In this document: piece by piece, positions 43,237-52,059 of the stretch | How positions within the stretch are numbered: position 1 is the stretch's first letter | How the letters are laid out: each line of letters opens with the position of its first letter | Sequence record: PP400781 | Source of the DNA: Escherichia phage FL20 | Direction: 5' to 3' (one strand) | Length of the DNA: 64,000 bases | Made by a program: the position numbers and the translations under genes | The notes under the pieces: model-generated | What the model was told of the DNA's origin: nothing | Database searches by the model: none | What the model saw: the letters and a program-made list of their open reading frames with translations, nothing else

Positions 43237-44393
43237 AGATATTTCCCGAATCGGTTGTAGTCATCGTCTGTTAAATCGGTATTAACCTGAGATACCAGAT
43301 ACATAATCTCTACTTCCTGCGCTGCATTCTGTACTTCGTCAGAGTTCAACCATTTACGCATCCACGGTAACGGATGACGACGAACACTAAACGGGCTTTT
43401 CAGTCCGGCAGCACGCATACGGGAATCTGCCAGGTATTCTACATAGGTTTTCAGAATTTCCGGTGACAGGTTAGGAATTGCCCCCATTGCGAATAGGTGG
43501 TCTACCCATTCTTTTTCTTGCTCGACAACATCCAGAAAGATTTTCGTTGCTTCGCCTTCAAGTTCTTCCGCAATCTGTTTCCACTCATCACCATCAACCC
43601 CCGTTTGCCATTGACGAATAATGTATTGTGTGCCTTTTAAGTGAAGTTGTTCATCACGCGCAATAAATTTCATGATCTTCGCGTTACCTTCCAGTAAACC
43701 ACGTTCGGCAAAGCTGAAAGTACATGCAAAGGACACATAAAAACGAATTGCTTCCAGTGCATTGACGCAGTGTGCACACAGATAAATCGAAGCCATCAGA
43801 TCTCGTTTTGTATCTTCAAAAAATCTTCTTGCATCATCTAATGCTGTCTGGTCGTCTCGTTCTTCCCAATAGCGGAGATCTTCTTTTGCATTCTCATACT
43901 TACGAATCCAATAAAGAACATCATCATAATATTTCCCGATAGATTCCGCTCGCTTCATGATAGCAGGGTTATCGATGATCTGGTCGAACTCACTAGCCGG
44001 ATCAATGAAACAGTTACGCATAATGTGTGTATAGCTTCGGCTATGAATCGTTTCGCTGAATGTCCATGTTTGCAACCATGTATCGAGAGTTGGATCAGAT
44101 ACAATTGGACCAAATGCTGCGGACGGTGCGCGACCTTGAATAGAATCAAGTAATGTCTGATACTTCAAGTTTTCAGTAAAGAAACGTTTTTCAACATCGC
44201 CCATATTCAGATACTGAATGCGGTCGGTTGCAAGTGAAATTTCTTCGGGGCGCCAAAAAAATGACAATTGCTTTTCGATCAGTTCTTCAAATACTTGATG
44301 ACGCTGAATATCATAGCGAGCGATACCCAACCCACTACCCAGAAACATTGGTTCGTTCATAATATCAACATGTTCGCGGTTAAATACGCTCAT
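43233..44393 (-). CDS. nrdB: ribonucleotide reductase small subunit
   Basis: 386 aa; di-iron ligand pattern; no intron seen in this copy. Confidence 0.9.
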   Translation of the reverse strand: MSVFNREHVDIMNEPMFLGSGLGIARYDIQRHQVFEELIEKQLSFFWRPEEISLATDRIQYLNMGDVEKRFFTENLKYQTLLDSIQGRAPSAAFGPIVSDPTLDTWLQTWTFSETIHSRSYTHIMRNCFIDPASEFDQIIDNPAIMKRAESIGKYYDDVLYWIRKYENAKEDLRYWEERDDQTALDDARRFFEDTKRDLMASIYLCAHCVNALEAIRFYVSFACTFSFAERGLLEGNAKIMKFIARDEQLHLKGTQYIIRQWQTGVDGDEWKQIAEELEGEATKIFLDVVEQEKEWVDHLFAMGAIPNLSPEILKTYVEYLADSRMRAAGLKSPFSVRRHPLPWMRKWLNSDEVQNAAQEVEIMYLVSQVNTDLTDDDYNRFGKYL

Positions 44394-44740
44394 TAATTCA
44401 CCTCACTATCACTTTTTAACACAAAAGATCTTAGTATTTCTGTTTACTTCGCTATCCTGCTGCAATTCCTGCACAGCTTCAAAACAATTTTGATGTGATG
44501 AAAACTCTACGCTGGTAACAGTTCCTTTATTATATGATCCTACGCTAACGGAAAGCAATAACCATACAGTAGCCATTATCCGACAACCTCAAAACATTTA
44601 TCATCAGGAAGAATCGCCCATTCTACACCATATTCATCCTCGACGTAGTCAAGTCCCATCATGTCGAGCATCATATTCATCACCAACAACAAAGCTATCA
44701 GCTAGTTCAAAATCTACAGCAACACATTTTAATTTGGTCA

Positions 44741-44801
44741 TAATAAAATCCTCACTTGTTTTTGATGGTTGTATTATAGCGGGGATTTCTCCCCGCGTCA
44801 A
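44741..44801 (-). promoter_or_regulatory. PeSL-like early promoter cassette
   Basis: TTGACG / palindromic spacer GCGGGGAGAAATCCCCGC / TATAAT. Confidence 0.6.
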
Positions 44802-44809
44802 CACTTATT

Positions 44810-47053
44810 TTACAGCTTGCAAGATGAGCACTCGCTAGCGTCTTCCGTACCATCTGCACCGTCGCGAACGTTCGCATAATACAGGGTTTTCAGACCGTAA
44901 TGTTGAGCGAACAACATATCATCTAACACATCAGCAATATCGACTTTACCAGTCTTATAAGTGCTTGGATCATAGGATGTATTGGAACTAATCGCCTGAT
45001 CTACAAACTTCTGCATGATCGCTGCCAGTGTCAGATAGGGCTTGTTACCTTTCTTGATCAGTGTCCAAAGCAGGTCAATAACATCAGCATTATTCTCTAC
45101 GTTCGGAATAACCTGATTAAATTGCCCTTCTTTCGATCCTTTAACCGATACAATCCCGCGAGGTGGTTCAATACCGTTTGTGCTGTTAGACACCTGAGAA
45201 GATGACTCACAAGGCATCAGCGCCGAAAGCGTACTGTTACGAATGCCATATTTTTTCAGGTCTTCGCGCAGTTCTTCCCAATCCATCTCATACACCGGAT
45301 CAACCAGTTCATCTACTGTCTTTTTGTACCAGTCGATAGGCAGTTCACCGCGACCATAACGTGTTTCATGCATCAGTTCGCAAGCACCCTTCTCTTTAGC
45401 CAGTTGCACACTAGCCTTAATCAGAGCATATTGCAAGCGTTCAAACGTTTTATGCGTAAACTCGCTAGCGTCTTCATATGTGAAGAAATTATCTGCTAGA
45501 TATGATGCAAAGTTAGTCACACCAACACCCAGAGAGCGACGTTTTTTGGCTGTCAGAGCTTGTTCTACAGGATAATCCTGATAATCTAACAGGTTGTCCA
45601 GTGCACGCACCATAACCATAGCAATGCGTTCTACTTCTTCCATATTTTCGATATCAAAGTTTCCTAAAACATATGCTGCCAAAGTACATAGGCTGATCTC
45701 TGAATCATCACGACCCATCGGTTTTGTAGGCAGAGCAATTTCACAACACAGGTTAGATTGTTTAATCGGTGCTACATTACGAATAAACGCCCCGTGATTG
45801 TTCATGTTGTCTGTGAACGTTGGGTAGATTCGACCAGTGTTAAAACGTTCAATTGCCACCGCTAAAAACAGGTCTTCGGCTTTAACACGAGTTTTACGAA
45901 CACTCGGATCTTTTTCCAGTTTTTCGTAAAGTTGGCGGAAACCTTCCTCGTCTCGGAAGTACAGATCCCACAACAAGCCACCCGCAACATCTGGACTAAA
46001 CAGAGTAATGTAATCCCGTTTAAGGAATCGCTCTACCATCAGGTTATTAATCTGTACGCCGTAGTCAAGATGGCGAATGCGGTTATCTTCCACGCCCTTA
46101 TTGTTCTTTAACACAATCAGACTTTCAAACTCTAAATGCCACATTGGGTAATAGAGTGTCGCTGCCCCGCCACGAATACCGCCTTGTGAGCATGACTTAA
46201 CGGCAGTCTGAAAATGTTTCCAGAATGGGATAACTCCAGTATGACGAACTTCACCATGCCCGATCTTAGATCCTTCCGCGCGAATCATGCCAGCGTTGAT
46301 ACCGATACCAGCACGCTTGCTAATATACTTGATGATTGCATTTGCGGTTTCATTAATACCCTGCAATGAGTCATCACTTTCAATCACCACACACGAACTA
46401 AATTGGCGTGTTGGGGTACGCACACCTGCCATAATCGGAGTAGGCAGAGAGATTTGCTTATTCGCAACCGCATTATAAAAATCAATCACATGTTCAAGTC
46501 GATTTTCTGTCTCTTCTTGATGCAAGCACATACCGATCAGCATATACGCAAATTGCGGTGTTTCGATGATTTTCTTAGTGCTGCGATCTTGAACAAGATA
46601 TTTCTCTTTTAACTGCATCGCACCAGCATAGGTCATTTTAAAATCAAGTTTATGGTCGATGAATTTCTCCAGATATTCCACTTCTTCACGGGAATACTTT
46701 TGCAGAATTTCGCGATCATATTTTCCGGTTGCAATATTACGCTCAATATGGCTGTAAAAATCAATCGGTTGGAATTGACCGTATACTGATTTGCGAAGCG
46801 CGAACATTGCAAGGTTACTTGCTACATATTGATAATCGGGTGTTTCTACAGTAATGTTATCTGCTGCGACCTTAATCAATACTTTCTGGATATCGTTGGT
46901 AGACATACCTTCTGTCAGAAGTGGTTCAACCATATCAAACAATTCATATGGATCAACGTTATGACCTTCGGCTGCCGCTTCCAGAATTTTCATTACTTTT
47001 TCTTTTTCAAAAGGAACAGTCAGACCGGAAGACTTAACAACATTTTTAATCAT
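44810..47053 (-). CDS. nrdA: ribonucleotide reductase large subunit
   Basis: 747 aa; N-terminal ATP-cone, catalytic NLCCEI, C-terminal CSSC; class Ia. Confidence 0.95.
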   Translation of the reverse strand: MIKNVVKSSGLTVPFEKEKVMKILEAAAEGHNVDPYELFDMVEPLLTEGMSTNDIQKVLIKVAADNITVETPDYQYVASNLAMFALRKSVYGQFQPIDFYSHIERNIATGKYDREILQKYSREEVEYLEKFIDHKLDFKMTYAGAMQLKEKYLVQDRSTKKIIETPQFAYMLIGMCLHQEETENRLEHVIDFYNAVANKQISLPTPIMAGVRTPTRQFSSCVVIESDDSLQGINETANAIIKYISKRAGIGINAGMIRAEGSKIGHGEVRHTGVIPFWKHFQTAVKSCSQGGIRGGAATLYYPMWHLEFESLIVLKNNKGVEDNRIRHLDYGVQINNLMVERFLKRDYITLFSPDVAGGLLWDLYFRDEEGFRQLYEKLEKDPSVRKTRVKAEDLFLAVAIERFNTGRIYPTFTDNMNNHGAFIRNVAPIKQSNLCCEIALPTKPMGRDDSEISLCTLAAYVLGNFDIENMEEVERIAMVMVRALDNLLDYQDYPVEQALTAKKRRSLGVGVTNFASYLADNFFTYEDASEFTHKTFERLQYALIKASVQLAKEKGACELMHETRYGRGELPIDWYKKTVDELVDPVYEMDWEELREDLKKYGIRNSTLSALMPCESSSQVSNSTNGIEPPRGIVSVKGSKEGQFNQVIPNVENNADVIDLLWTLIKKGNKPYLTLAAIMQKFVDQAISSNTSYDPSTYKTGKVDIADVLDDMLFAQHYGLKTLYYANVRDGADGTEDASECSSCKL

Positions 47054-47121
47054 ATTACCTCACTTCATATTTTAGCAGGAACAAGTTTATCCTCCATATT
47101 GGGGGCTTTCGCCCCCTTTGT

Positions 47122-48354
47122 TTATACTGCCATTTGAGCGGTGATTGCTGGATGGCTTTGATAGTTGTGAATTTTAAAGTCTTTCGGAGTCTTTGTCAAT
47201 ACCTCATCTAAAGATTTAAATTCCGGCAACTCAATCGTTGGTTTATCAAACGGAACACGGCTTAACTGTTCCATAACTTGATCAAAATGGTTTTTGTAAA
47301 TGTGAGTATCTCCACCAGAGAAAATCAGTTCTCCTACCTCAAGATCACACATTTTCGCTATGATGTGAGTTAACAGCGCATAGCTGGCGACGTTAAAGGG
47401 CAAGCCTAAAAAGCTGTCTACGCTTCTCTGAAACCACATACAAGACAGTTTACCTTCATTGACGTAGAATTGCACGAAAGGATGACATACACCCAATACA
47501 GCATTATGTGTTCCTTGTACGTTCCATGAGTCAATAATGATCCGGCGATCCGTTGGATTGTTTTTAATTTGTTCAATCACGTTTTGTAACTGGTCTTCCC
47601 AAATCTTCTGGCGATAGACATATTCTTCATCGTCTTTAGTGCTCGATGTGTCTACGTCCATACTAGCAAAGATCGTGGTATCTGGTGCTAAAATATCCCC
47701 ACCCAGATAATCACTATCAAGCAGATAACCGAAATAACCATCATCTACCCATTCCTGGAATCCCCACAAGCAATATGCATCATTAACAAAATTAGATTGA
47801 GTCTTCCAGTGGTCTGCTACTAAGAATAGATTATACTCAGAATCAAACTCTTCATAACGCATACCACGCCAGATAGCACATAAACGGTCTTCTGTTTCAT
47901 TGGTTGGCGTAAAGTCTTCTACCCACGGGTGCTTAAATGTATGTGCATATTTGCTCTTAACGCGCTTAATTTTGATTTCACCGTGTGGATGAATCGGTTT
48001 GCGTCGCCATGCCATACCATACATATTGCCGACATTATAACCATTGAATCGCAAAGGATTCTTTTCTTTCATATCAAGACAGTTGCCGCGCCAAATGTCG
48101 AAGGCTTCTTCGTCAAACTTACCGCGTGTAATTTCCTGTAAGCGACGGCGGTCAAGTGATCCCTCCATAAACCATAGCAATTCACCAATTACAGAGGCTG
48201 TAGCCATCTTTTTAGTGGTCAGTAAGGGGAAACCCTTGCTTAAGTCAATTCGCATTTCTGCACCGAATTTAGAGAGCGTACCTATCCCCGTTCGGTCTTC
48301 ACGAGGCCAGCCATTATCAAGAACATCACGCAACAGTTTCAAATATTCTTTCAT
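47122..48354 (-). CDS. td: thymidylate synthase with ~125-aa insertion
   Basis: ThyA motifs CHPFVQFYV, GKLSC, QRSVDSFLGLPFN, ASYALL; extra residues between the YGxxWR and DQL..V..IKNNPTDRRII regions. Confidence 0.85.
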   Translation of the reverse strand: MKEYLKLLRDVLDNGWPREDRTGIGTLSKFGAEMRIDLSKGFPLLTTKKMATASVIGELLWFMEGSLDRRRLQEITRGKFDEEAFDIWRGNCLDMKEKNPLRFNGYNVGNMYGMAWRRKPIHPHGEIKIKRVKSKYAHTFKHPWVEDFTPTNETEDRLCAIWRGMRYEEFDSEYNLFLVADHWKTQSNFVNDAYCLWGFQEWVDDGYFGYLLDSDYLGGDILAPDTTIFASMDVDTSSTKDDEEYVYRQKIWEDQLQNVIEQIKNNPTDRRIIIDSWNVQGTHNAVLGVCHPFVQFYVNEGKLSCMWFQRSVDSFLGLPFNVASYALLTHIIAKMCDLEVGELIFSGGDTHIYKNHFDQVMEQLSRVPFDKPTIELPEFKSLDEVLTKTPKDFKIHNYQSHPAITAQMAV

Positions 48355-48622
48355 CCCACATCACCTTTTTCTTATTGATTGCTTTCTTACGCAGTTTTGC
48401 TACTGTCTCGTCAATATCGATAAAGACAACGCCACGGTCGAATACAGTAGCAGGTCTTGAGATATCGCTATTTTCTTGCACAGGAAGCCATGATGCGCTC
48501 GCTTCATCATAGAGATATTGTAAACCGTAATAATCTACGGCTACTGCGTAGTTTTCACTGGTAGCCGTCCATAATTGAATAATACCGACTTTCATTATTG
48601 TTCCCGTCCGCAATGTAAGCAC
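48326..48622 (-). CDS. hypothetical protein (98 aa)
   Basis: ORF between frd and td. Confidence 0.4.
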   Translation of the reverse strand: MLTLRTGTIMKVGIIQLWTATSENYAVAVDYYGLQYLYDEASASWLPVQENSDISRPATVFDRGVVFIDIDETVAKLRKKAINKKKVMWDERIFETVA

Positions 48623-48688
48623 CGACTACCAGCAAACATTAAAGATTCACCACAATGTTTGCACTCATAATCTGTCAGAATTTTCATG

Positions 48689-49270
48689 TTACGCCTTCTT
48701 ACGTTCTAAAATTTGTTCGCTGATCAGGTAATTATCAAGGAAGTAATTATGTTCTTCTTTGGTTACAAAGTCAAAATACAATTCCTGAATCATTTCCTTA
48801 GATATACCAACATCATATTCAAATGGATCGTTGATCCCTGAACGTTGAACATACGTTAACACAATACGGTCCGCAAAGTCAACTGCTTTTTCAATCAGGG
48901 AAGGTCCACCAATAACGCTTACCAAACCTTGCAATTTCTCTATGACTTCTAATAATTCCTTCAATCCACCATCATTAGTAATCGCGGTATACACATCAGG
49001 TTGTTCGCCGTTTTTTGCTGTCGGTGCTGGCTTACTGGTATCGGTACTAACAACCACATTCACACGACCTTCCAGTGCTTTAGGAAGACTTTCAAAGGTA
49101 TTGCGTCCCATTACAACCGCCGCAAGATCAACATCTCCCATAGTGCGCATTTTAAAGTTTTCCATGTCCTTTTTGATTGGACGACCCCACGGTAAACCGC
49201 CTTTAAAACCAAAAGACCAATTTTCATCCGACATTTTAGTGTCACCAATCGCAAATACACATTGAATCAT
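48689..49270 (-). CDS. frd: dihydrofolate reductase
   Basis: 193 aa; GLPWGRP motif; T4 frd position. Confidence 0.85.
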   Translation of the reverse strand: MIQCVFAIGDTKMSDENWSFGFKGGLPWGRPIKKDMENFKMRTMGDVDLAAVVMGRNTFESLPKALEGRVNVVVSTDTSKPAPTAKNGEQPDVYTAITNDGGLKELLEVIEKLQGLVSVIGGPSLIEKAVDFADRIVLTYVQRSGINDPFEYDVGISKEMIQELYFDFVTKEEHNYFLDNYLISEQILERKKA

Positions 49271-49285
49271 AATATAAATCTCCTA

Positions 49286-49615
49286 TCAAACCAGCTTGAG
49301 ATAGTTTTCGTTAACGTTTTCTTCTGTGATCTCGGTTTTAAACTCATTACCAACATCAGGAGAAACATAATAGCGTTCGGAATAATCACGCCACATTTTC
49401 AGTAGGCTGACACCAACATTAACACCATTTTCCCAGAAACGGAAGATAATTTTATTTGCGGTGTAGCGGTAATCGCTTTGAATCAAGCTGCCATCACCGC
49501 GACGTGATTCATAAACCGTAATACATTCACGGTTAGCGGCTTTAAGACATTCTTCAATAGTGCCGCATGAGATAATTTCGGTTGAGTCGTTTACGATTTG
49601 TTCTACAGTCCACAT
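49286..49615 (-). CDS. hypothetical protein (109 aa)
   Basis: ORF downstream of PeSL; frd.x position. Confidence 0.5.
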   Translation of the reverse strand: MWTVEQIVNDSTEIISCGTIEECLKAANRECITVYESRRGDGSLIQSDYRYTANKIIFRFWENGVNVGVSLLKMWRDYSERYYVSPDVGNEFKTEITEENVNENYLKLV

Positions 49616-49674
49616 AATATAATCCTCTCTTTGTTTCGATGTGTGTATTATACATTACCACATCAGCATGTCAA
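49616..49674 (-). promoter_or_regulatory. PeSL-like early promoter cassette
   Basis: TTGACA / 16 nt / TATAAT / leader CACACATCGAAACAAAGAGAGGATT. Confidence 0.6.
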
Positions 49675-49701
49675 CACCTTTTTCATAAAATTTTAGTCAA
49701 T

Positions 49702-49726
49702 AAAAAAGCCTCCCCGAAGGAAGGCT
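49702..49726 (-). terminator. rho-independent terminator after gene 32
   Basis: Minus-strand hairpin AGCCTTCC-TTCG-GGGAGGCT followed by 6 U. Confidence 0.7.
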
Positions 49727-49736
49727 TTAAAATTCA

Positions 49737-50738
49737 TTACATCCCTAACAGAGCGTCAAGATCATCCAGATCAGAAGCGGAGGAAGTACCGCCACCCAGA
49801 TCCAGCGATGCCATCAGGTCATCAGCGGAAGAATCTAACGCCGTGCTAGCTGCGTTAATACCAACTACAGTGCTAGCTGCGTTAATACCAACTACAGTGC
49901 TAGCTGCGTTAATACCAGAATCGAATGCATTCATCTGTGCGTCAAAATCGTCAAGCTGGCTGTTAATCGCTGCCGCAGCACTGGAAGCCGCAGCACCAGC
50001 TACCATAGAAACGCCCATAGTTTTCTTAAATTTTGTTTCCAGTTCATCGAACGGTTTAAACTGGCTAGGCGCTACAATCTCACTCAGATCAACCATGTTT
50101 TCCATCAGATATTTCTGATATGCTTCGTCTTCAATTTTCGGAAGCTGTGATTGCTGCATGAAACGAGAATCATCATAGTTCTGGTGTTTATCAACCTTCT
50201 TAGCTTTCAGGAGGAAGTTAGCACCAGAGAACACACAAGTTACATCGACCGGAACTTCGCCCATATCGGTATTCACGTTCACCATTGCAACGATCTTATC
50301 ATAAATTTTCTGACCGAAGCGGAATTTGAATACCTTACCTTCATTTTCTGGTGCTTGAGGATCTTTCAGTACCAGAATATTTGCGTAGTAAGACGCTTTA
50401 CGCTTAATCAGTTGCCATTCGGTTTTATCGGTATTGTACAGGTCTTTTTCGTTAATATATTTGCACACAGGGCAAGAATCAAAATCACCGTGGGTGCTGG
50501 AGCAGTTTTCCCAATACCATTTGCCATTAACTTTGAAGGAATGGTTTACCAGTTTCACAATCGGCAGACCGTCTTCTGTCTTAGACGGCAGGAAGCGAAT
50601 CAGGGCTTCACCGTTACCTGCTGCATCAGTCTTAATCTTCCACTCTTTTGGATCTTCTTTGGAGAAACCGTTGCCACCTTTCAGTGCGGCCAGTTGAGCT
50701 TGCAGTTTGGAGCTATCTTGACGACGAAACATGTTCAT
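49737..50738 (-). CDS. 32: single-stranded DNA-binding protein gp32
   Basis: N-terminal KxKx-like basic region, [13 protein letters not shown], zinc ligands [16 protein letters not shown]; acidic C-terminal domain. Confidence 0.9.
49843..49916. repeat. 27-bp tandem repeat (about 2.7 copies) in gene 32 C-terminal domain
   Basis: GTGCTAGCTGCGTTAATACCAACTACA repeated; encodes GINAASTVV x2-3. Confidence 0.85.
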
Positions 50739-50798
50739 AATTATACCTCTTTATACATTAACTATTGATTAATTTACGTTTTATACTATATCAGATAC

Positions 50799-51395
50799 TT
50801 AATTGCTTGTCAATACTTTATCAATTATATCTAACAGTTTTGGCTTTCTATTTTCAAATTCTAACATCTCTTCGGGAGAAATGTCAACTACTTCTGTTTT
50901 GTTGAAAAAGTTTGGGTCTATAGCATCAGCAACAAAGTTTCTCGCAAGTGCTGCCGCTTTCTCATGAACATATATTCCCAAATATATCAACTTCTTTCTT
51001 TCGACCTGAATATTGGCAACATATTTACCATCTCGTTTATAAAGACTAACACCGATATATTCAGACGATCGACCTTTCTGTTTACCCATATTTCTTGAGT
51101 TTTGTTGCTCGTTCGCATCTCTCAAGTTTTCAATCCGATTATCTGTTATAATTCGGTTAACATGGTCAACGTATTTTGGCATGTATCCATGATGCATAAA
51201 GAAAATTATTCTATGCTCTTTATGATGTTTACCATCGATACACACCAATCTGTATCCATGACTAGGATTAACTCCACCCGCTCTAGATCCGACTTTATGC
51301 TTTCTGTTTGTCGATATCTTGCGAATCAGCTTACCGTTATCATATTTAAAGAGTTCATGACAACGAGCATACAATTCAGGATCATATGTTTTCAC
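50799..51395 (-). CDS. HNH homing endonuclease with AP2 DNA-binding domain
   Basis: HNH core GYRLVCIDGKHHKEHR...VDHVNRIITDNRIENLR; AP2-like YIGVSLYKRDGKYVANIQ; between 32 and 59 where T4 carries segG. Confidence 0.8.
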   Translation of the reverse strand: MKTYDPELYARCHELFKYDNGKLIRKISTNRKHKVGSRAGGVNPSHGYRLVCIDGKHHKEHRIIFFMHHGYMPKYVDHVNRIITDNRIENLRDANEQQNSRNMGKQKGRSSEYIGVSLYKRDGKYVANIQVERKKLIYLGIYVHEKAAALARNFVADAIDPNFFNKTEVVDISPEEMLEFENRKPKLLDIIDKVLTSN

Positions 51396-52059
51396 CTTTT
51401 AACCTCGATATTTCTTTACACTCTTTAACTACTTTAACAAATAATGCTCTTGCTTTTGCGGCGTCAATAACAAGTAGTTTCTTGTACGCCTTCATTTTAA
51501 CACTATAAGTTTGCCAAATCAAGTCTTTGGCTACCTTGTCGTGTTCGTCGATTATATTTAGAAAGCTATCTAACAACATAAACGACTCAAACGATATAAT
51601 CCGATTTTGCAGTAGTTTAAAGATACCGCTAGTTTCGGTTGCGGGATTATATGTAATTAGCTCTTTAAGAGTAACCCCGCGTTTCTCTGAGAAGTATACA
51701 AGACTTTTAATGTCATCGTCAAATCTTGTTGCTGCATCTGTTATCTTTCCTATGTATTCCATATAAAAGCCGTATGCGTCAACATCAGTGATTTCACCTA
51801 CCCATGCATCGGTATTAGCTACCAGATTGCTTAGGAATAGGAAGTATAATTCTCTTAGATTGTACTTTTCCGCTAATTTTGCGAAATAATACTTATCTCT
51901 GCGTTTATTGAATGCGGCATCAGATAACCGCATCCTCCAATTATATTTTACGCAATCATAACGCCCGTTCATATGAGCTTTCATCATGCAATATAACATA
52001 TACACAGATTTAGCATTAATTCGCATATCTGGATCTGGAGGAAGACGGTTTCTGATCAT
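51382..52059 (-). CDS. 59: helicase loader gp59
   Basis: GKSVY.LY...HMNG.YD..KYNW.MR.SDAA..KRRDKY.F.KL similar to T4 gp59. Confidence 0.9.
   Translation of the reverse strand: MIRNRLPPDPDMRINAKSVYMLYCMMKAHMNGRYDCVKYNWRMRLSDAAFNKRRDKYYFAKLAEKYNLRELYFLFLSNLVANTDAWVGEITDVDAYGFYMEYIGKITDAATRFDDDIKSLVYFSEKRGVTLKELITYNPATETSGIFKLLQNRIISFESFMLLDSFLNIIDEHDKVAKDLIWQTYSVKMKAYKKLLVIDAAKARALFVKVVKECKEISRLKGENI

What the first reader, a model, noticed from the sequence alone, without database searches (positions are those of the whole stretch)
47122..48354. Thymidylate synthase with a ~125-aa in-frame insertion
The td ORF is 410 aa. E. coli ThyA is 264 aa and T4 Td is 286 aa, as I recall. All core ThyA motifs are present, but ~125 extra residues sit between the YGxxWR region and the DQL..V..IKNNPTDRRII helix, where the variable small domain lies. 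The insert has no stop codons and no intein-like boundary residues, so it looks like an expanded domain rather than an intron or intein.
Basis: partly seen in the sequence, partly recalled or inferred. Interest (0 to 1): 0.5.

Follow-up and report, generated by a model that had tools for sequence, protein, structure and literature searches.

The report
Endonuclease relic inside phage thymidylate synthase
The thymidylate synthase of this RB49-like phage carries a 136-residue extra domain that is a stripped-down, apparently inactive descendant of a homing-endonuclease-like protein inserted in frame into the enzyme; longer, intact-looking versions in jumbo phages still seem to move between genes without any intron or intein.

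Summary
A 410-aa ThyA ORF lies on the minus strand (47122-48354). It has one discrete 136-aa block (residues 118-253) between YGMAWR and DQLQNV, where 95 ordinary ThyAs have 5-34 residues. The window is an RB49-like Krischvirus, and all 58 matching phage records carry the insert. It is not an intron or an intein: it is translated, folds on its own (pLDDT 92.7) and is under purifying selection (dN/dS 0.11, core 0.08). It belongs to a family of ThyA inserts (127-268 aa) in T4-like and jumbo phages. The long members match phage 'HNH endonuclease' PHROGs (E=6.6e-40). Their free-standing relatives sit inside or beside split polymerase, RNR and thyA genes. Long inserts keep the family's invariant residues and DNA-binding modules, and they differ between near-identical phages as a cassette centred on the insert. 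The RB49 form has lost both DNA-binding modules and the invariant polar residues, and it is very acidic (pI 4.05). Best reading: a fixed, nuclease-dead relic of an in-frame, unspliced homing-type element inside an active enzyme. I found no published description. Its present function, and any nuclease activity of the long forms, are untested.

The parts
47122..48354 (-). td / thyA ORF, 410 aa plus stop
   Evidence: ORF list. Pfam PF00303 E=1.1e-84. 99.1% nt identity to Krischvirus RB49, present in 58 phage records.
48004..48354 (-). ThyA core, N-terminal part (residues 1-117, ends with YGMAWR)
   Evidence: Aligns to E. coli ThyA 1-82 and onward. Alignment A1. Coordinates checked.
47596..48003 (-). 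In-frame insert, residues 118-253 (136 aa): the endonuclease-family relic
   Evidence: Single block in A1. Folds alone with pLDDT 92.7, pTM 0.85. dN/dS 0.108. Homologous to long ThyA inserts and to free-standing phage proteins. GC 0.409, the same as the window's 0.405.
47965..48000 (-). Ascending beta strand of the stalk (residues 119-130, KPIHPHGEIKIK). The stalk/linker 118-140 is basic (7 K+R, 1 D+E).
   Evidence: DSSP on the AF2 models: E119-130 and E3-13 of the insert model. Charge.
47647..47898 (-). Globular knob (about residues 153-236): helices 153-169, 181-193 and 199-204, strands 210-213 and 228-231. It corresponds to the 'W..M..RCY ... ELDKD..GN..Y...TC.F....N' module of the free-standing family.
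   Evidence: AF2. Alignment to free-standing proteins. Net charge -13 and pI 4.05 for the module.
47710..47724 (-). LLDSD (residues 211-215), the degenerate counterpart of the family-invariant E-L-D-K-D
   Evidence: The invariant Lys is S/C/C/Q/C/L in the six RB49-clade proteins but K in 11/11 long Td inserts and 16/16 free-standing proteins.
47596..47622 (-). Descending beta strand of the stalk (residues 245-253, YVYRQKIWE), returning to the ThyA DQ helix
   Evidence: DSSP E245-253. Conserved '(V/Y)(V/Y)RP.I..DQ' in all insert-bearing ThyAs.
47125..47595 (-). ThyA core, C-terminal part (residues 254-410), with DRR (269-271), catalytic C290 (VCHPF, 47476-47490), FNVASY (N321) and DTHIY (H351, Y353)
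   Evidence: Aligns to E. coli ThyA 110-264. Invariant columns. Coordinates.
47365..47595 (-). Recombination-mosaic patch directly downstream of the insert (residues 254-330)
   Evidence: Against JSE and KFS-EC this patch has dN 0.21 and saturated dS, while the N-core and insert are nearly identical.

Best explanation
The gene encodes a working dUMP-methylating thymidylate synthase. Its surface beta-hairpin between YG..WR and DQ has been split by a foreign protein module, which is translated with the enzyme and stays in it. SHOWN: the insert is one block. It folds on its own as a two-stranded stalk carrying a helical/beta knob, and it is under purifying selection. It is homologous to longer inserts (up to 268 aa) at the same site in ThyAs of other T4-like and jumbo phages. 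Those long inserts are homologous to a large family of small phage proteins that sit in or beside conserved replication and nucleotide-metabolism genes, in the manner of homing endonuclease genes. Long inserts keep the family's invariant residues and flanking DNA-binding modules. They are strongly constrained, are younger than the thyA sequence around them, and differ between otherwise similar phages of one genus as a cassette centred on the insert. The RB49-type insert has lost both flanking modules and the invariant polar residues, keeps only the hydrophobic core, has become strongly acidic, and is fixed in Krischvirus. INFERRED: an endonuclease-like gene entered thyA in frame, at a site where the enzyme tolerates a protruding domain, and spread by homing-type gene conversion without needing an intron or intein. 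In the RB49 lineage it then decayed into a nuclease-dead, non-DNA-binding knob. I think it persists for three reasons. Only a precise deletion would restore a working enzyme. The interrupted allele lacks the target site of related endonucleases. The strong constraint (dN/dS about 0.1) and the acidification suggest the knob has been co-opted, most likely as a protein-contact surface; I put that at roughly even odds. What the knob does today is not known.
For: One block at one site. The site is bimodal, 5-34 versus 127-268 residues. AF2: whole protein pLDDT 93.6, pTM 0.91, with strands 119-130 and 245-253 flanking the knob; insert alone pLDDT 92.7, pTM 0.85. Purifying selection: insert dN/dS 0.108 versus core 0.078 at dS about 0.8. 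An exhaustive phmmer of the insert against 1.84 billion representatives finds only long ThyAs as real hits. Long inserts match phrog_2081 'HNH endonuclease' at E=6.6e-40, and also phrog_374, 953, 3377 and 8790. The insert profile finds free-standing proteins of 190-308 aa, and the alignment is continuous from free-standing proteins to the RB49 insert. tblastn gives 1440 phage records, nearly all free-standing genes. Examples lie next to a normal thyA in Vibrio phage K408, between the primase and polymerase genes in D391, between DNA-polymerase fragments in Bacillus phage BSP15, between nrdB fragments in Staphylococcus phage 184DA, and after the ICP1 polymerase gene. BSP15_120 is the module plus two I-HmuI NUMOD-like domains (E=3.3e-19), and its C-terminus aligns to 1U3E. 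Invariant residues are kept in long inserts and lost in the RB49 clade; module pI is 4.05 versus 6-9. BFVD structural matches are long ThyAs first, then small phage proteins, several annotated as homing endonucleases. Cassette exchange: Alcyoneusvirus Muenster (309-aa ThyA) versus KP13-7 (517 aa). Flanking genes are 92-100% identical; thyA nt identity is 98% at codons 1-30, falls to 52-60% through the centre and returns to about 80%. Three thyA states occupy one Asteriusvirus locus. For KP13-7 versus UE-S1, insert dS is 0.54 versus 1.74 and 1.10 in the flanking core, and the nuclease-like module has dN/dS 0.078. P0106's core groups with insert-less ThyAs in 66% of bootstraps.
Confidence: 0.7

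Rival explanations
1. Co-opted functional domain. Whatever its origin, the RB49 knob now has a host-beneficial job and is kept for that reason. Examples would be docking Td to a basic partner in the T4-type dNTP-synthesis/replication complex, or acting as an acidic DNA-mimic surface. This overlaps the best explanation and differs only in why the insert persists.
For: dN/dS is 0.108, close to the core's 0.078. The module shifted directionally to net charge -13 and pI 4.05, while relatives lie at pI 6-9. The motif LWGFQE(W/F/Y)VD is conserved in most Td inserts but is not a feature of the free-standing proteins. The insert is fixed in 58 Krischvirus records. Confident rigid placement on a stalk is implied by whole-protein pTM 0.91.
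Against: There is no partner, no assay and no structural match that suggests a function. Constraint could reflect only the need to fold without harming the enzyme. A 4-aa indel (SEYN) is polymorphic inside the knob.
Confidence: 0.35
2. The RB49-type insert is still an active homing endonuclease embedded in Td.
For: The fold of the nuclease-like module is retained. Two family-invariant Asn positions are Asp in the window, which could still bind metal. A recombination breakpoint sits at the insert's 3' edge in Krischvirus.
Against: The invariant Lys, Arg, Tyr and Cys are replaced in all six RB49-clade proteins, and the D-K-D triad varies freely among them (LDSD, LDCD, LSCD, LTQK, LSCK, LSLV). 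Both DNA-binding modules are absent, and the knob is strongly acidic. There is no presence/absence polymorphism in 58 records. Synonymous divergence of the insert is not lower than that of the N-terminal core against P0002.
Confidence: 0.05
3. The insert is a home-grown expansion of ThyA's own variable region, unrelated to mobile elements.
For: ThyA is known to tolerate length variation around this region (own knowledge: L. casei small domain, eukaryotic insert 1). Insert-less phage ThyAs already vary from 5 to 34 residues here, and Muenster has 39.
Against: Lengths are bimodal with no intermediates between 34 and 127 residues. There is clear homology to free-standing proteins that have no ThyA part, and these are far more widespread (1440 phage records). 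The long inserts have a multi-module architecture like that of the free-standing proteins.
Confidence: 0.07
4. The insert is removed before the mature enzyme forms, as an intein, a group I intron or another splicing element.
For: T4 td famously carries a group I intron (own knowledge), and phage nucleotide-metabolism genes are hot spots for introns and inteins.
Against: Rfam finds no intron even at E<=1. Pfam finds no Hint, intein or LAGLIDADG domain. The junctions are WR|RKPIH and KIWE|DQL, which are not C/S...HN|C/S/T. The frame is open and under protein-level purifying selection. AF2 builds a continuous beta-ribbon from the core into the insert.
Confidence: 0.02

Closest known systems
ShiLan domain: an in-frame, unspliced insertion in mycobacteriophage DNA methylase genes that hides an HNH endonuclease (Arsenault, Gosselin & Gogarten 2025, PMC11855218)
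   Same: It is a homing-type element that interrupts a phage enzyme gene, with no stop codons in the host frame and no intron or intein features. It is predicted to stay in the host protein as a protruding structure. Its distribution among related phages is disjoint.
   Different: In ShiLan the endonuclease is encoded OUT of frame, and the in-frame product is a simple hairpin. Here the host-frame translation itself is the endonuclease-like protein, and the other frames have 6 and 19 stops. The host gene here is thyA, and the window's copy is a fixed, degenerate relic.
Intein-embedded homing endonucleases (for example PI-SceI-type)
   Same: They are in-frame insertions of an endonuclease at a conserved site of a conserved enzyme. 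They spread by gene conversion, and the endonuclease often decays after fixation (own knowledge).
   Different: There is no Hint splicing domain and no splice-junction residues (sequence). The insert is predicted to remain in the mature enzyme on a beta stalk.
Free-standing and intron-located phage homing endonucleases with I-HmuI-type NUMOD-like or AP2 DNA-binding modules (PDB 1U3E I-HmuI; the PHROG 2081/374/953/3377 'HNH endonuclease' families)
   Same: The long ThyA inserts share the N-terminal beta module, the central 'W..M..RCY...ELDKD..GN..Y..TC.F...N' module and a C-terminal module that resembles the NUMOD-like domains by eye but gave no Pfam match. Members sit in or beside polymerase, RNR, primase and thyA genes.
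   Different: Those proteins are separate polypeptides. The central module is not recognised by Pfam HNH models, and its catalytic nature is unproven. The window's insert keeps only the scaffold of that module.
I-TevI and the group I intron of phage T4 td
   Same: The host gene and the ecological logic are the same: a homing element parasitising phage thymidylate synthase.
   Different: It is a different endonuclease family (GIY-YIG), sits at a different site in td, is removed by RNA splicing and is expressed from its own ORF (own knowledge; reviewed in PMC2988022). No intron is present here.
Length-variant ThyAs: the L. casei 50-residue small-domain insert and the eukaryotic inserts of human TS
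   Same: They show that this face of ThyA tolerates extra residues without loss of activity.
   Different: They are much smaller and lineage-intrinsic, with no relation to mobile-element proteins. The L. casei insert lies upstream of YG..WR (own knowledge, not tested here). PDB chain lengths are 316 versus 264 aa.
CapR of the Vibrio cholerae PLE satellite: a domesticated homing-endonuclease domain (PMC8096241)
   Same: It is a precedent for a homing-endonuclease-derived domain that has lost nuclease function and is retained for another role.
   Different: It belongs to a different family (CapR/T5orf172), is a separate protein and has a demonstrated function as a DNA-binding repressor.

Membership tests
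Thymidylate synthase ThyA (PF00303) | Whole-protein match to the family model above the curated cutoff | tested here: met
   284.2 bits against a cutoff of 24.3, in two stretches split by the insert. phrog_160 E=9.3e-101. E. coli ThyA E=1.4e-68.
Thymidylate synthase ThyA (PF00303) | Catalytic Cys (CHP), the dUMP-phosphate arginines (R21, RR, R166 equivalent), the Asn that selects dUMP over dCMP, and the His/Tyr of D.H.Y | tested here: met
   R21, R270/R271, C290-H291, R310, S311, D313, N321, H351 and Y353 are invariant columns in alignment A1. Motif positions checked. The mapping to E. coli numbering is from my own knowledge.
Thymidylate synthase ThyA (PF00303) | Enzymatic conversion of dUMP to dTMP | not testable with these tools
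   Needs an enzyme assay or complementation of a thyA mutant.
Inteins | Hint splicing domain; N-terminal Cys/Ser; C-terminal His-Asn followed by Cys/Ser/Thr | tested here: not met
   No Hint, intein or LAGLIDADG Pfam hit at E<=1. The junctions read WR|RKPIH and KIWE|DQL.
Group I / group II introns | Match to a ribozyme covariance model; interruption of the reading frame | tested here: not met
   Rfam scan of 44000-52000 at E<=1 gives no intron family. The frame is open and selected at the protein level.
Phage endonuclease-like family (PHROG 2081/374/953/3377; free-standing or intron-located genes) | Sequence homology of the central module | tested here: met
   The window insert alone reaches only E=0.5 to phrog_2081. 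It is linked by phmmer to long ThyA inserts (E down to 1.8e-10), which hit phrog_2081 at 6.6e-40. The alignment is continuous, and BFVD structural matches agree. The homology is therefore transitive.
Phage endonuclease-like family (PHROG 2081/374/953/3377; free-standing or intron-located genes) | Family-invariant polar residues (R, Y, Y, E-L-D-K-D, G-N, Y, C, N) | tested here: not met
   The window has E, F, Y, LLDSD, GG, L, T, D at these positions. Lys, Arg, Tyr and Cys are lost in all six RB49-clade proteins but kept in long Td inserts.
Phage endonuclease-like family (PHROG 2081/374/953/3377; free-standing or intron-located genes) | Accessory DNA-binding modules (N-terminal beta module; C-terminal AP2 or I-HmuI NUMOD-like/HTH) | tested here: not met
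   Both are absent from the window's insert. The N-terminal beta module and a C-terminal module of unassigned type are present in the 517-546-aa ThyAs, and AP2 or NUMOD-like domains are present in free-standing members.
Phage endonuclease-like family (PHROG 2081/374/953/3377; free-standing or intron-located genes) | Site-specific DNA cleavage and homing | not testable with these tools
   Indirect evidence only: gene positions and cassette-like exchange of long-insert thyA alleles.
HNH / beta-beta-alpha-metal nuclease superfamily | Recognisable HNH motif or fold | tested here: inconclusive
ShiLan-type hidden out-of-frame endonuclease insertions | Endonuclease ORF in an alternative frame of the insert | tested here: not met
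   The other two frames on the coding strand have 6 and 19 stops inside the insert. No ORF of 100 aa or more in another frame lies within it.

The most novel reading that the evidence does not exclude
The long ThyA inserts (for example Klebsiella phage KP13-7/phiKp_21, Escherichia phages UE-S1 and ph0011, and the metagenomic P0106) are active homing endonucleases that work while permanently embedded, in frame and unspliced, in a functional dimeric enzyme. That would be a further lifestyle for homing endonuclease genes beside free-standing, intron-borne and intein-borne. The RB49/Krischvirus Td insert would be the fossil left after such an element became fixed and was co-opted.
Probability: 0.35. 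Interest if true: 0.8.

Novelty: new variant of a known kind. Interest (0 to 1): 0.62.

Why it matters
Homing endonuclease genes are thought to survive inside essential genes only if they can remove themselves, as an intron or intein, or if they sit between genes. Here an endonuclease-family protein is simply read through as part of thymidylate synthase, parked on a stalk at a tolerant surface hairpin. If the long forms are active, a splicing device is not required for this kind of selfish element, and an enzyme can acquire a new domain in a single step. The series from 268 down to 127 residues, ending in the fixed, acidic, signature-less RB49 knob, lays out the path from selfish element to permanent protein domain within one gene family. 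It is directly testable with cultured E. coli and Klebsiella phages. On the practical side, genome annotation currently labels these genes plain 'thymidylate synthase' or 'hypothetical protein' and misses the embedded element.

Tried and rejected
(1) Insert alone against Pfam, PDB sequences and the word-indexed 5.8-billion protein set: nothing.
(2) NCBIfam on long inserts: nothing.
(3) Exhaustive phmmer hits P0121, P0122 and P0130: rejected as low-complexity tandem-repeat artefacts after reading the sequences.
(4) Intron and intein readings: rejected.
(5) Hidden out-of-frame ORF, as in ShiLan: rejected.
(7) 'Bacterial' origin of P0023 (labelled a Culicoidibacterales MAG): rejected, because the contig carries T4-type Rnl1, Rnl2 and DHFR genes.
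(8) I first read the low synonymous divergence of the insert in Krischvirus as insert-specific. Segment analysis showed it is instead a highly divergent mosaic patch in residues 254-330 of some phages.
(9) Strict monophyly of the insert-bearing ThyAs: not supported (1.5% of bootstraps), but 30 of 32 do cluster.
(10) The search for related loci with the insert alignment failed because the alignment is too diverse. With single inserts it found only two Krischvirus-like viral contigs and no bacterial or archaeal genome hit, but that search is pattern-limited.
(11) Literature: five searches and several papers found no description of the Td insert. The original RB49 genome paper is not held.
Full report
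OBSERVATION. The window is an RB49-like Krischvirus. The 1233-nt segment is 99.1% identical to Krischvirus RB49, and 58 phage records carry it over at least 80% of its length. The ORF at 47122..48354 is real and 410 aa long, but it lies on the minus strand. It sits in a T4-type run of nrdA (44810-47053), td, frd (48689-49270) and gene 32 (49737-50738). Pfam Thymidylat_synt matches in two stretches at 284 bits. phmmer against PDB sequences aligns residues 1-82 with E. coli ThyA 1-82, and residues 254-410 with E. coli 110-264, T4 Td 120-286 and L. casei TS 162-316.

A multiple alignment with 21 other long ThyAs and three ordinary ones puts all the extra length in a single block between YGMAWR (112-117) and DQLQNV (254-259). 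That is 136 residues, at window 47596-48003. In a set of 127 ThyAs this site is sharply bimodal: 95 proteins have 5-34 residues there and 32 have 127-268. The td frame is open through the insert, while the other two frames on that strand have 6 and 19 stops. The catalytic and substrate-binding residues are invariant alignment columns.

NOT AN INTRON OR INTEIN, AND NOT DECAYING. Rfam at E<=1 finds no intron model in 44000-52000. Pfam finds no Hint, intein or LAGLIDADG domain. The junctions (WR|RKPIH, KIWE|DQL) lack intein residues. AlphaFold2 with a 25-sequence alignment gives pLDDT 93.6 and pTM 0.91 for the whole protein. Long strands 119-130 and 245-253 flank a helical/beta knob. I read these as a two-stranded stalk, but I could not inspect coordinates. 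The insert modelled alone gives pLDDT 92.7 and pTM 0.85. Against the most divergent Krischvirus-like allele (P0002, from a metagenomic contig with the same gene order), Nei-Gojobori dN/dS is 0.108 for the insert (dS 0.77) and 0.078 for the core. The insert's GC content (0.409) equals the window's (0.405).

WHAT THE INSERT IS. On its own the RB49 insert has no Pfam, PDB-sequence or word-index match, and only a faint hit to phrog_2081 'HNH endonuclease' (E=0.5). An exhaustive phmmer search of 1.84 billion representative proteins returns 13 hits. The real ones are all long ThyAs; three others are low-complexity repeat proteins. A whole-protein search shows a family of ThyAs of 401-613 aa with homologous inserts of graded length at the same site.

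The long inserts (about 245-268 aa) have three parts. The first is an upstream beta-rich module ('G.Y.V.GK...V.F.DTGSY....IKD...PS.EGVGY.G'). The second is the central module shared with RB49. The third is a downstream module ('LNGGG.GFK.Y...G..FYS...LQ..RG'). These long inserts hit phrog_2081 at E=6.6e-40, and also phrog_374, 953, 3377 and 8790. Pfam and NCBIfam do not recognise them.

A profile of the inserts retrieves free-standing proteins of 190-308 aa. tblastn finds relatives in 1440 phage records, almost all of them separate genes annotated HNH endonuclease, DNA-binding protein or hypothetical. Their positions are those of homing endonuclease genes:
- directly upstream of a normal-length thyA and frd in Vibrio phage K408;
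- between the primase and DNA polymerase genes in Vibrio phage D391;
- between fragments of a split DNA polymerase gene in Bacillus phage BSP15;
- between fragments of the RNR small-subunit gene in Staphylococcus phage 184DA;
- just after the DNA polymerase gene in ICP1.

BSP15_120 consists of the shared module followed by two I-HmuI NUMOD-like domains (PF22083, E=3.3e-19), and its C-terminus aligns to the I-HmuI structure 1U3E. The shared module therefore sits where I-HmuI has its nuclease domain (the I-HmuI layout is from my own knowledge). Other members end in an AP2 domain. The shortest member, at 174 aa, is just the beta module plus the shared module. Foldseek against viral models matches the RB49 insert first to other long ThyAs. 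It then matches small phage proteins, several of them named HNH, HTH or I-HmuI-like homing endonucleases.

RB49 FORM VERSUS LONG FORMS. In 16 free-standing proteins the residues W, R, Y, Y, F, W, E-L-D-K-D, G-N, Y, C, F and N are invariant or nearly so. The 11 long Td inserts keep almost all of them. The six RB49-clade proteins keep only the hydrophobic ones (W, F, L, G, F). The Lys is S/C/C/Q/C/L, the Arg is E/D/F/W/L or a gap, Tyr becomes L or I, and Cys becomes T or A. The D-K-D triad varies freely among them (alignment). The RB49 form also lacks both flanking modules. The module's net charge in the window is -13 (pI 4.05), against pI 6-9 for long inserts and for most free-standing proteins (range 4.9-9.2). 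The stalk is basic. So the window's insert is a folded scaffold of the module that has lost the family's signature and is an unlikely DNA binder.

ARE THE LONG FORMS MOBILE? All insert-bearing ThyAs whose context I read are in phage genomes: a 308-kb jumbo contig for P0106, and a T4-like contig mislabelled as a bacterial MAG for P0023. In an NJ tree of 269 core columns, 30 of the 32 insert-bearers form one pure clade, though with weak support (38% of bootstraps). Core and insert distances correlate (Mantel r=0.37; 8 of 2000 permutations reach it). P0106 nests among insert-less T4-type ThyAs in 66% of bootstraps, and monophyly of all 32 is recovered in only 1.5%.

Two comparisons are more telling. 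The first is within the genus Alcyoneusvirus. Klebsiella phage Muenster has a 309-aa ThyA with 39 residues at the site, and KP13-7 has the 517-aa form with the insert at residues 118-362. Neighbouring genes are 92-100% identical at the protein level. thyA nucleotide identity is 98% over codons 1-30 and 77-82% over codons 31-90. It drops to 52-60% from codon 91 through the insert to codon 423, then returns to about 80%. The second is within Asteriusvirus, where the same locus holds an insert-less thyA (CMSTMSU), a 517-aa form (UE-S1) and a 546-aa form with a different insert (ph0011). DNA homology breaks around the insert in each pair.

Between KP13-7 and UE-S1, which belong to different genera, insert dS is 0.54 against 1.74 and 1.10 in the flanking thyA core. 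The insert is therefore younger than the gene around it. Its nuclease-like module has dN/dS 0.078. These are the marks that homing with co-conversion would leave, although ordinary phage recombination is not excluded. In Krischvirus itself the insert is fixed. A very divergent mosaic patch begins exactly at its 3' edge in JSE, KFS-EC and, in shorter form, GoldenSnicker.

MECHANISM. Shown: an active-looking ThyA with a foreign, folded, selected domain on a stalk; homology of that domain to an endonuclease-like mobile gene family; loss of that family's signature in RB49; and cassette-like behaviour of the long forms. Inferred: an endonuclease-like gene inserted in frame at a tolerant hairpin and spread by gene conversion. 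It became fixed in the RB49 lineage and was trimmed to a nuclease-dead acidic knob. That knob persists because only a precise deletion would restore the enzyme, because the interrupted allele lacks the target site, and possibly because it has been co-opted.

COMPARISON AND NOVELTY. The nearest published case I found is the ShiLan domain, an unspliced in-frame insertion in a phage methylase. There, however, the HNH endonuclease is read in another frame (PMC11855218). Inteins share the in-frame logic but splice themselves out. I-TevI shares the host gene but is intron-borne. CapR is a precedent for a domesticated endonuclease domain. None of the literature searches or papers read mentions the Td insert. 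I rate this a new variant of a known kind: interesting mainly for the family it reveals, and moderate for the window's own degenerate copy.

Noticed in passing
window 47365-47595 (-), Td residues 254-330: The td gene is a recombination mosaic within Krischvirus. In JSE and KFS-EC (and over a shorter stretch in GoldenSnicker) the segment starting exactly at the insert's 3' edge is a very divergent allele (dN 0.21, dS saturated) that resembles the P0003-P0005 clade. The N-terminal core and the insert are nearly identical across these phages.
   Followed up: partly
window 47830-47841 (-), Td residues 172-175: A 4-residue indel (SEYN) inside the insert is polymorphic. It is present in the window, RB49 and KFS-EC, and absent in JSE, Phi1, GoldenSnicker and P0002. 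It lies in the loop where the free-standing family has its 'RCY......Y' segment.
   Followed up: partly
window 50799-51395 (-): A free-standing HNH_3 + AP2 endonuclease ORF (198 aa; Pfam 2.2e-11 and 7.4e-05) lies just upstream of gene 32. The homologous gene, between gene 59 and gene 32, is present in metagenomic relative L004 but absent from L005, so it shows presence/absence polymorphism.
   Followed up: partly
window about 49770-49870 (-), C-terminus of gp32 (ORF 49737-50738): The gp32 C-terminal region contains a near-perfect tandem peptide repeat ([25 protein letters not shown]), visible in the translation.
   Followed up: no
window 48326-48622 (-): A small ORF overlaps the td start codon region. 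It is annotated as an 89-aa hypothetical protein in RB49, JSE and Phi1, and is conserved in all Krischvirus records examined. Its function is unknown.
   Followed up: no
L004 3476-4693 and L005 2716-3738 (metagenomic Krischvirus-like contigs): Between gene 32 and frd these relatives carry a 340-405-aa gene with CapR-homology domains. That domain type is linked to T5orf172-family homing endonucleases in ICP1. The window has only a 109-aa ORF in that interval.
   Followed up: no
L018 1501-2428 (Escherichia phage CMSTMSU thyA): The insert-less thyA of CMSTMSU is annotated as two overlapping CDS (153 + 162 aa). That implies a frameshift or sequencing error in a record flagged UNVERIFIED_ORG.
   Followed up: no
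window 49696-49770 (-): A sub-threshold Rfam match to the sRNA STnc100 (28 bits against a gathering score of 47, E=0.004), mostly in the short gap between gene 32 and the downstream 109-aa ORF and overlapping the last codons of gene 32. It is probably chance.
   Followed up: no
Td inserts, window 47743-47769 (-), residues 196-204: The motif LWGFQE(W/F/Y)VD(S/D)GY is nearly invariant across most ThyA inserts, from RB49 to the jumbo phages. It is not a conserved feature of the free-standing relatives, which hints at a role specific to life inside ThyA.
   Followed up: no
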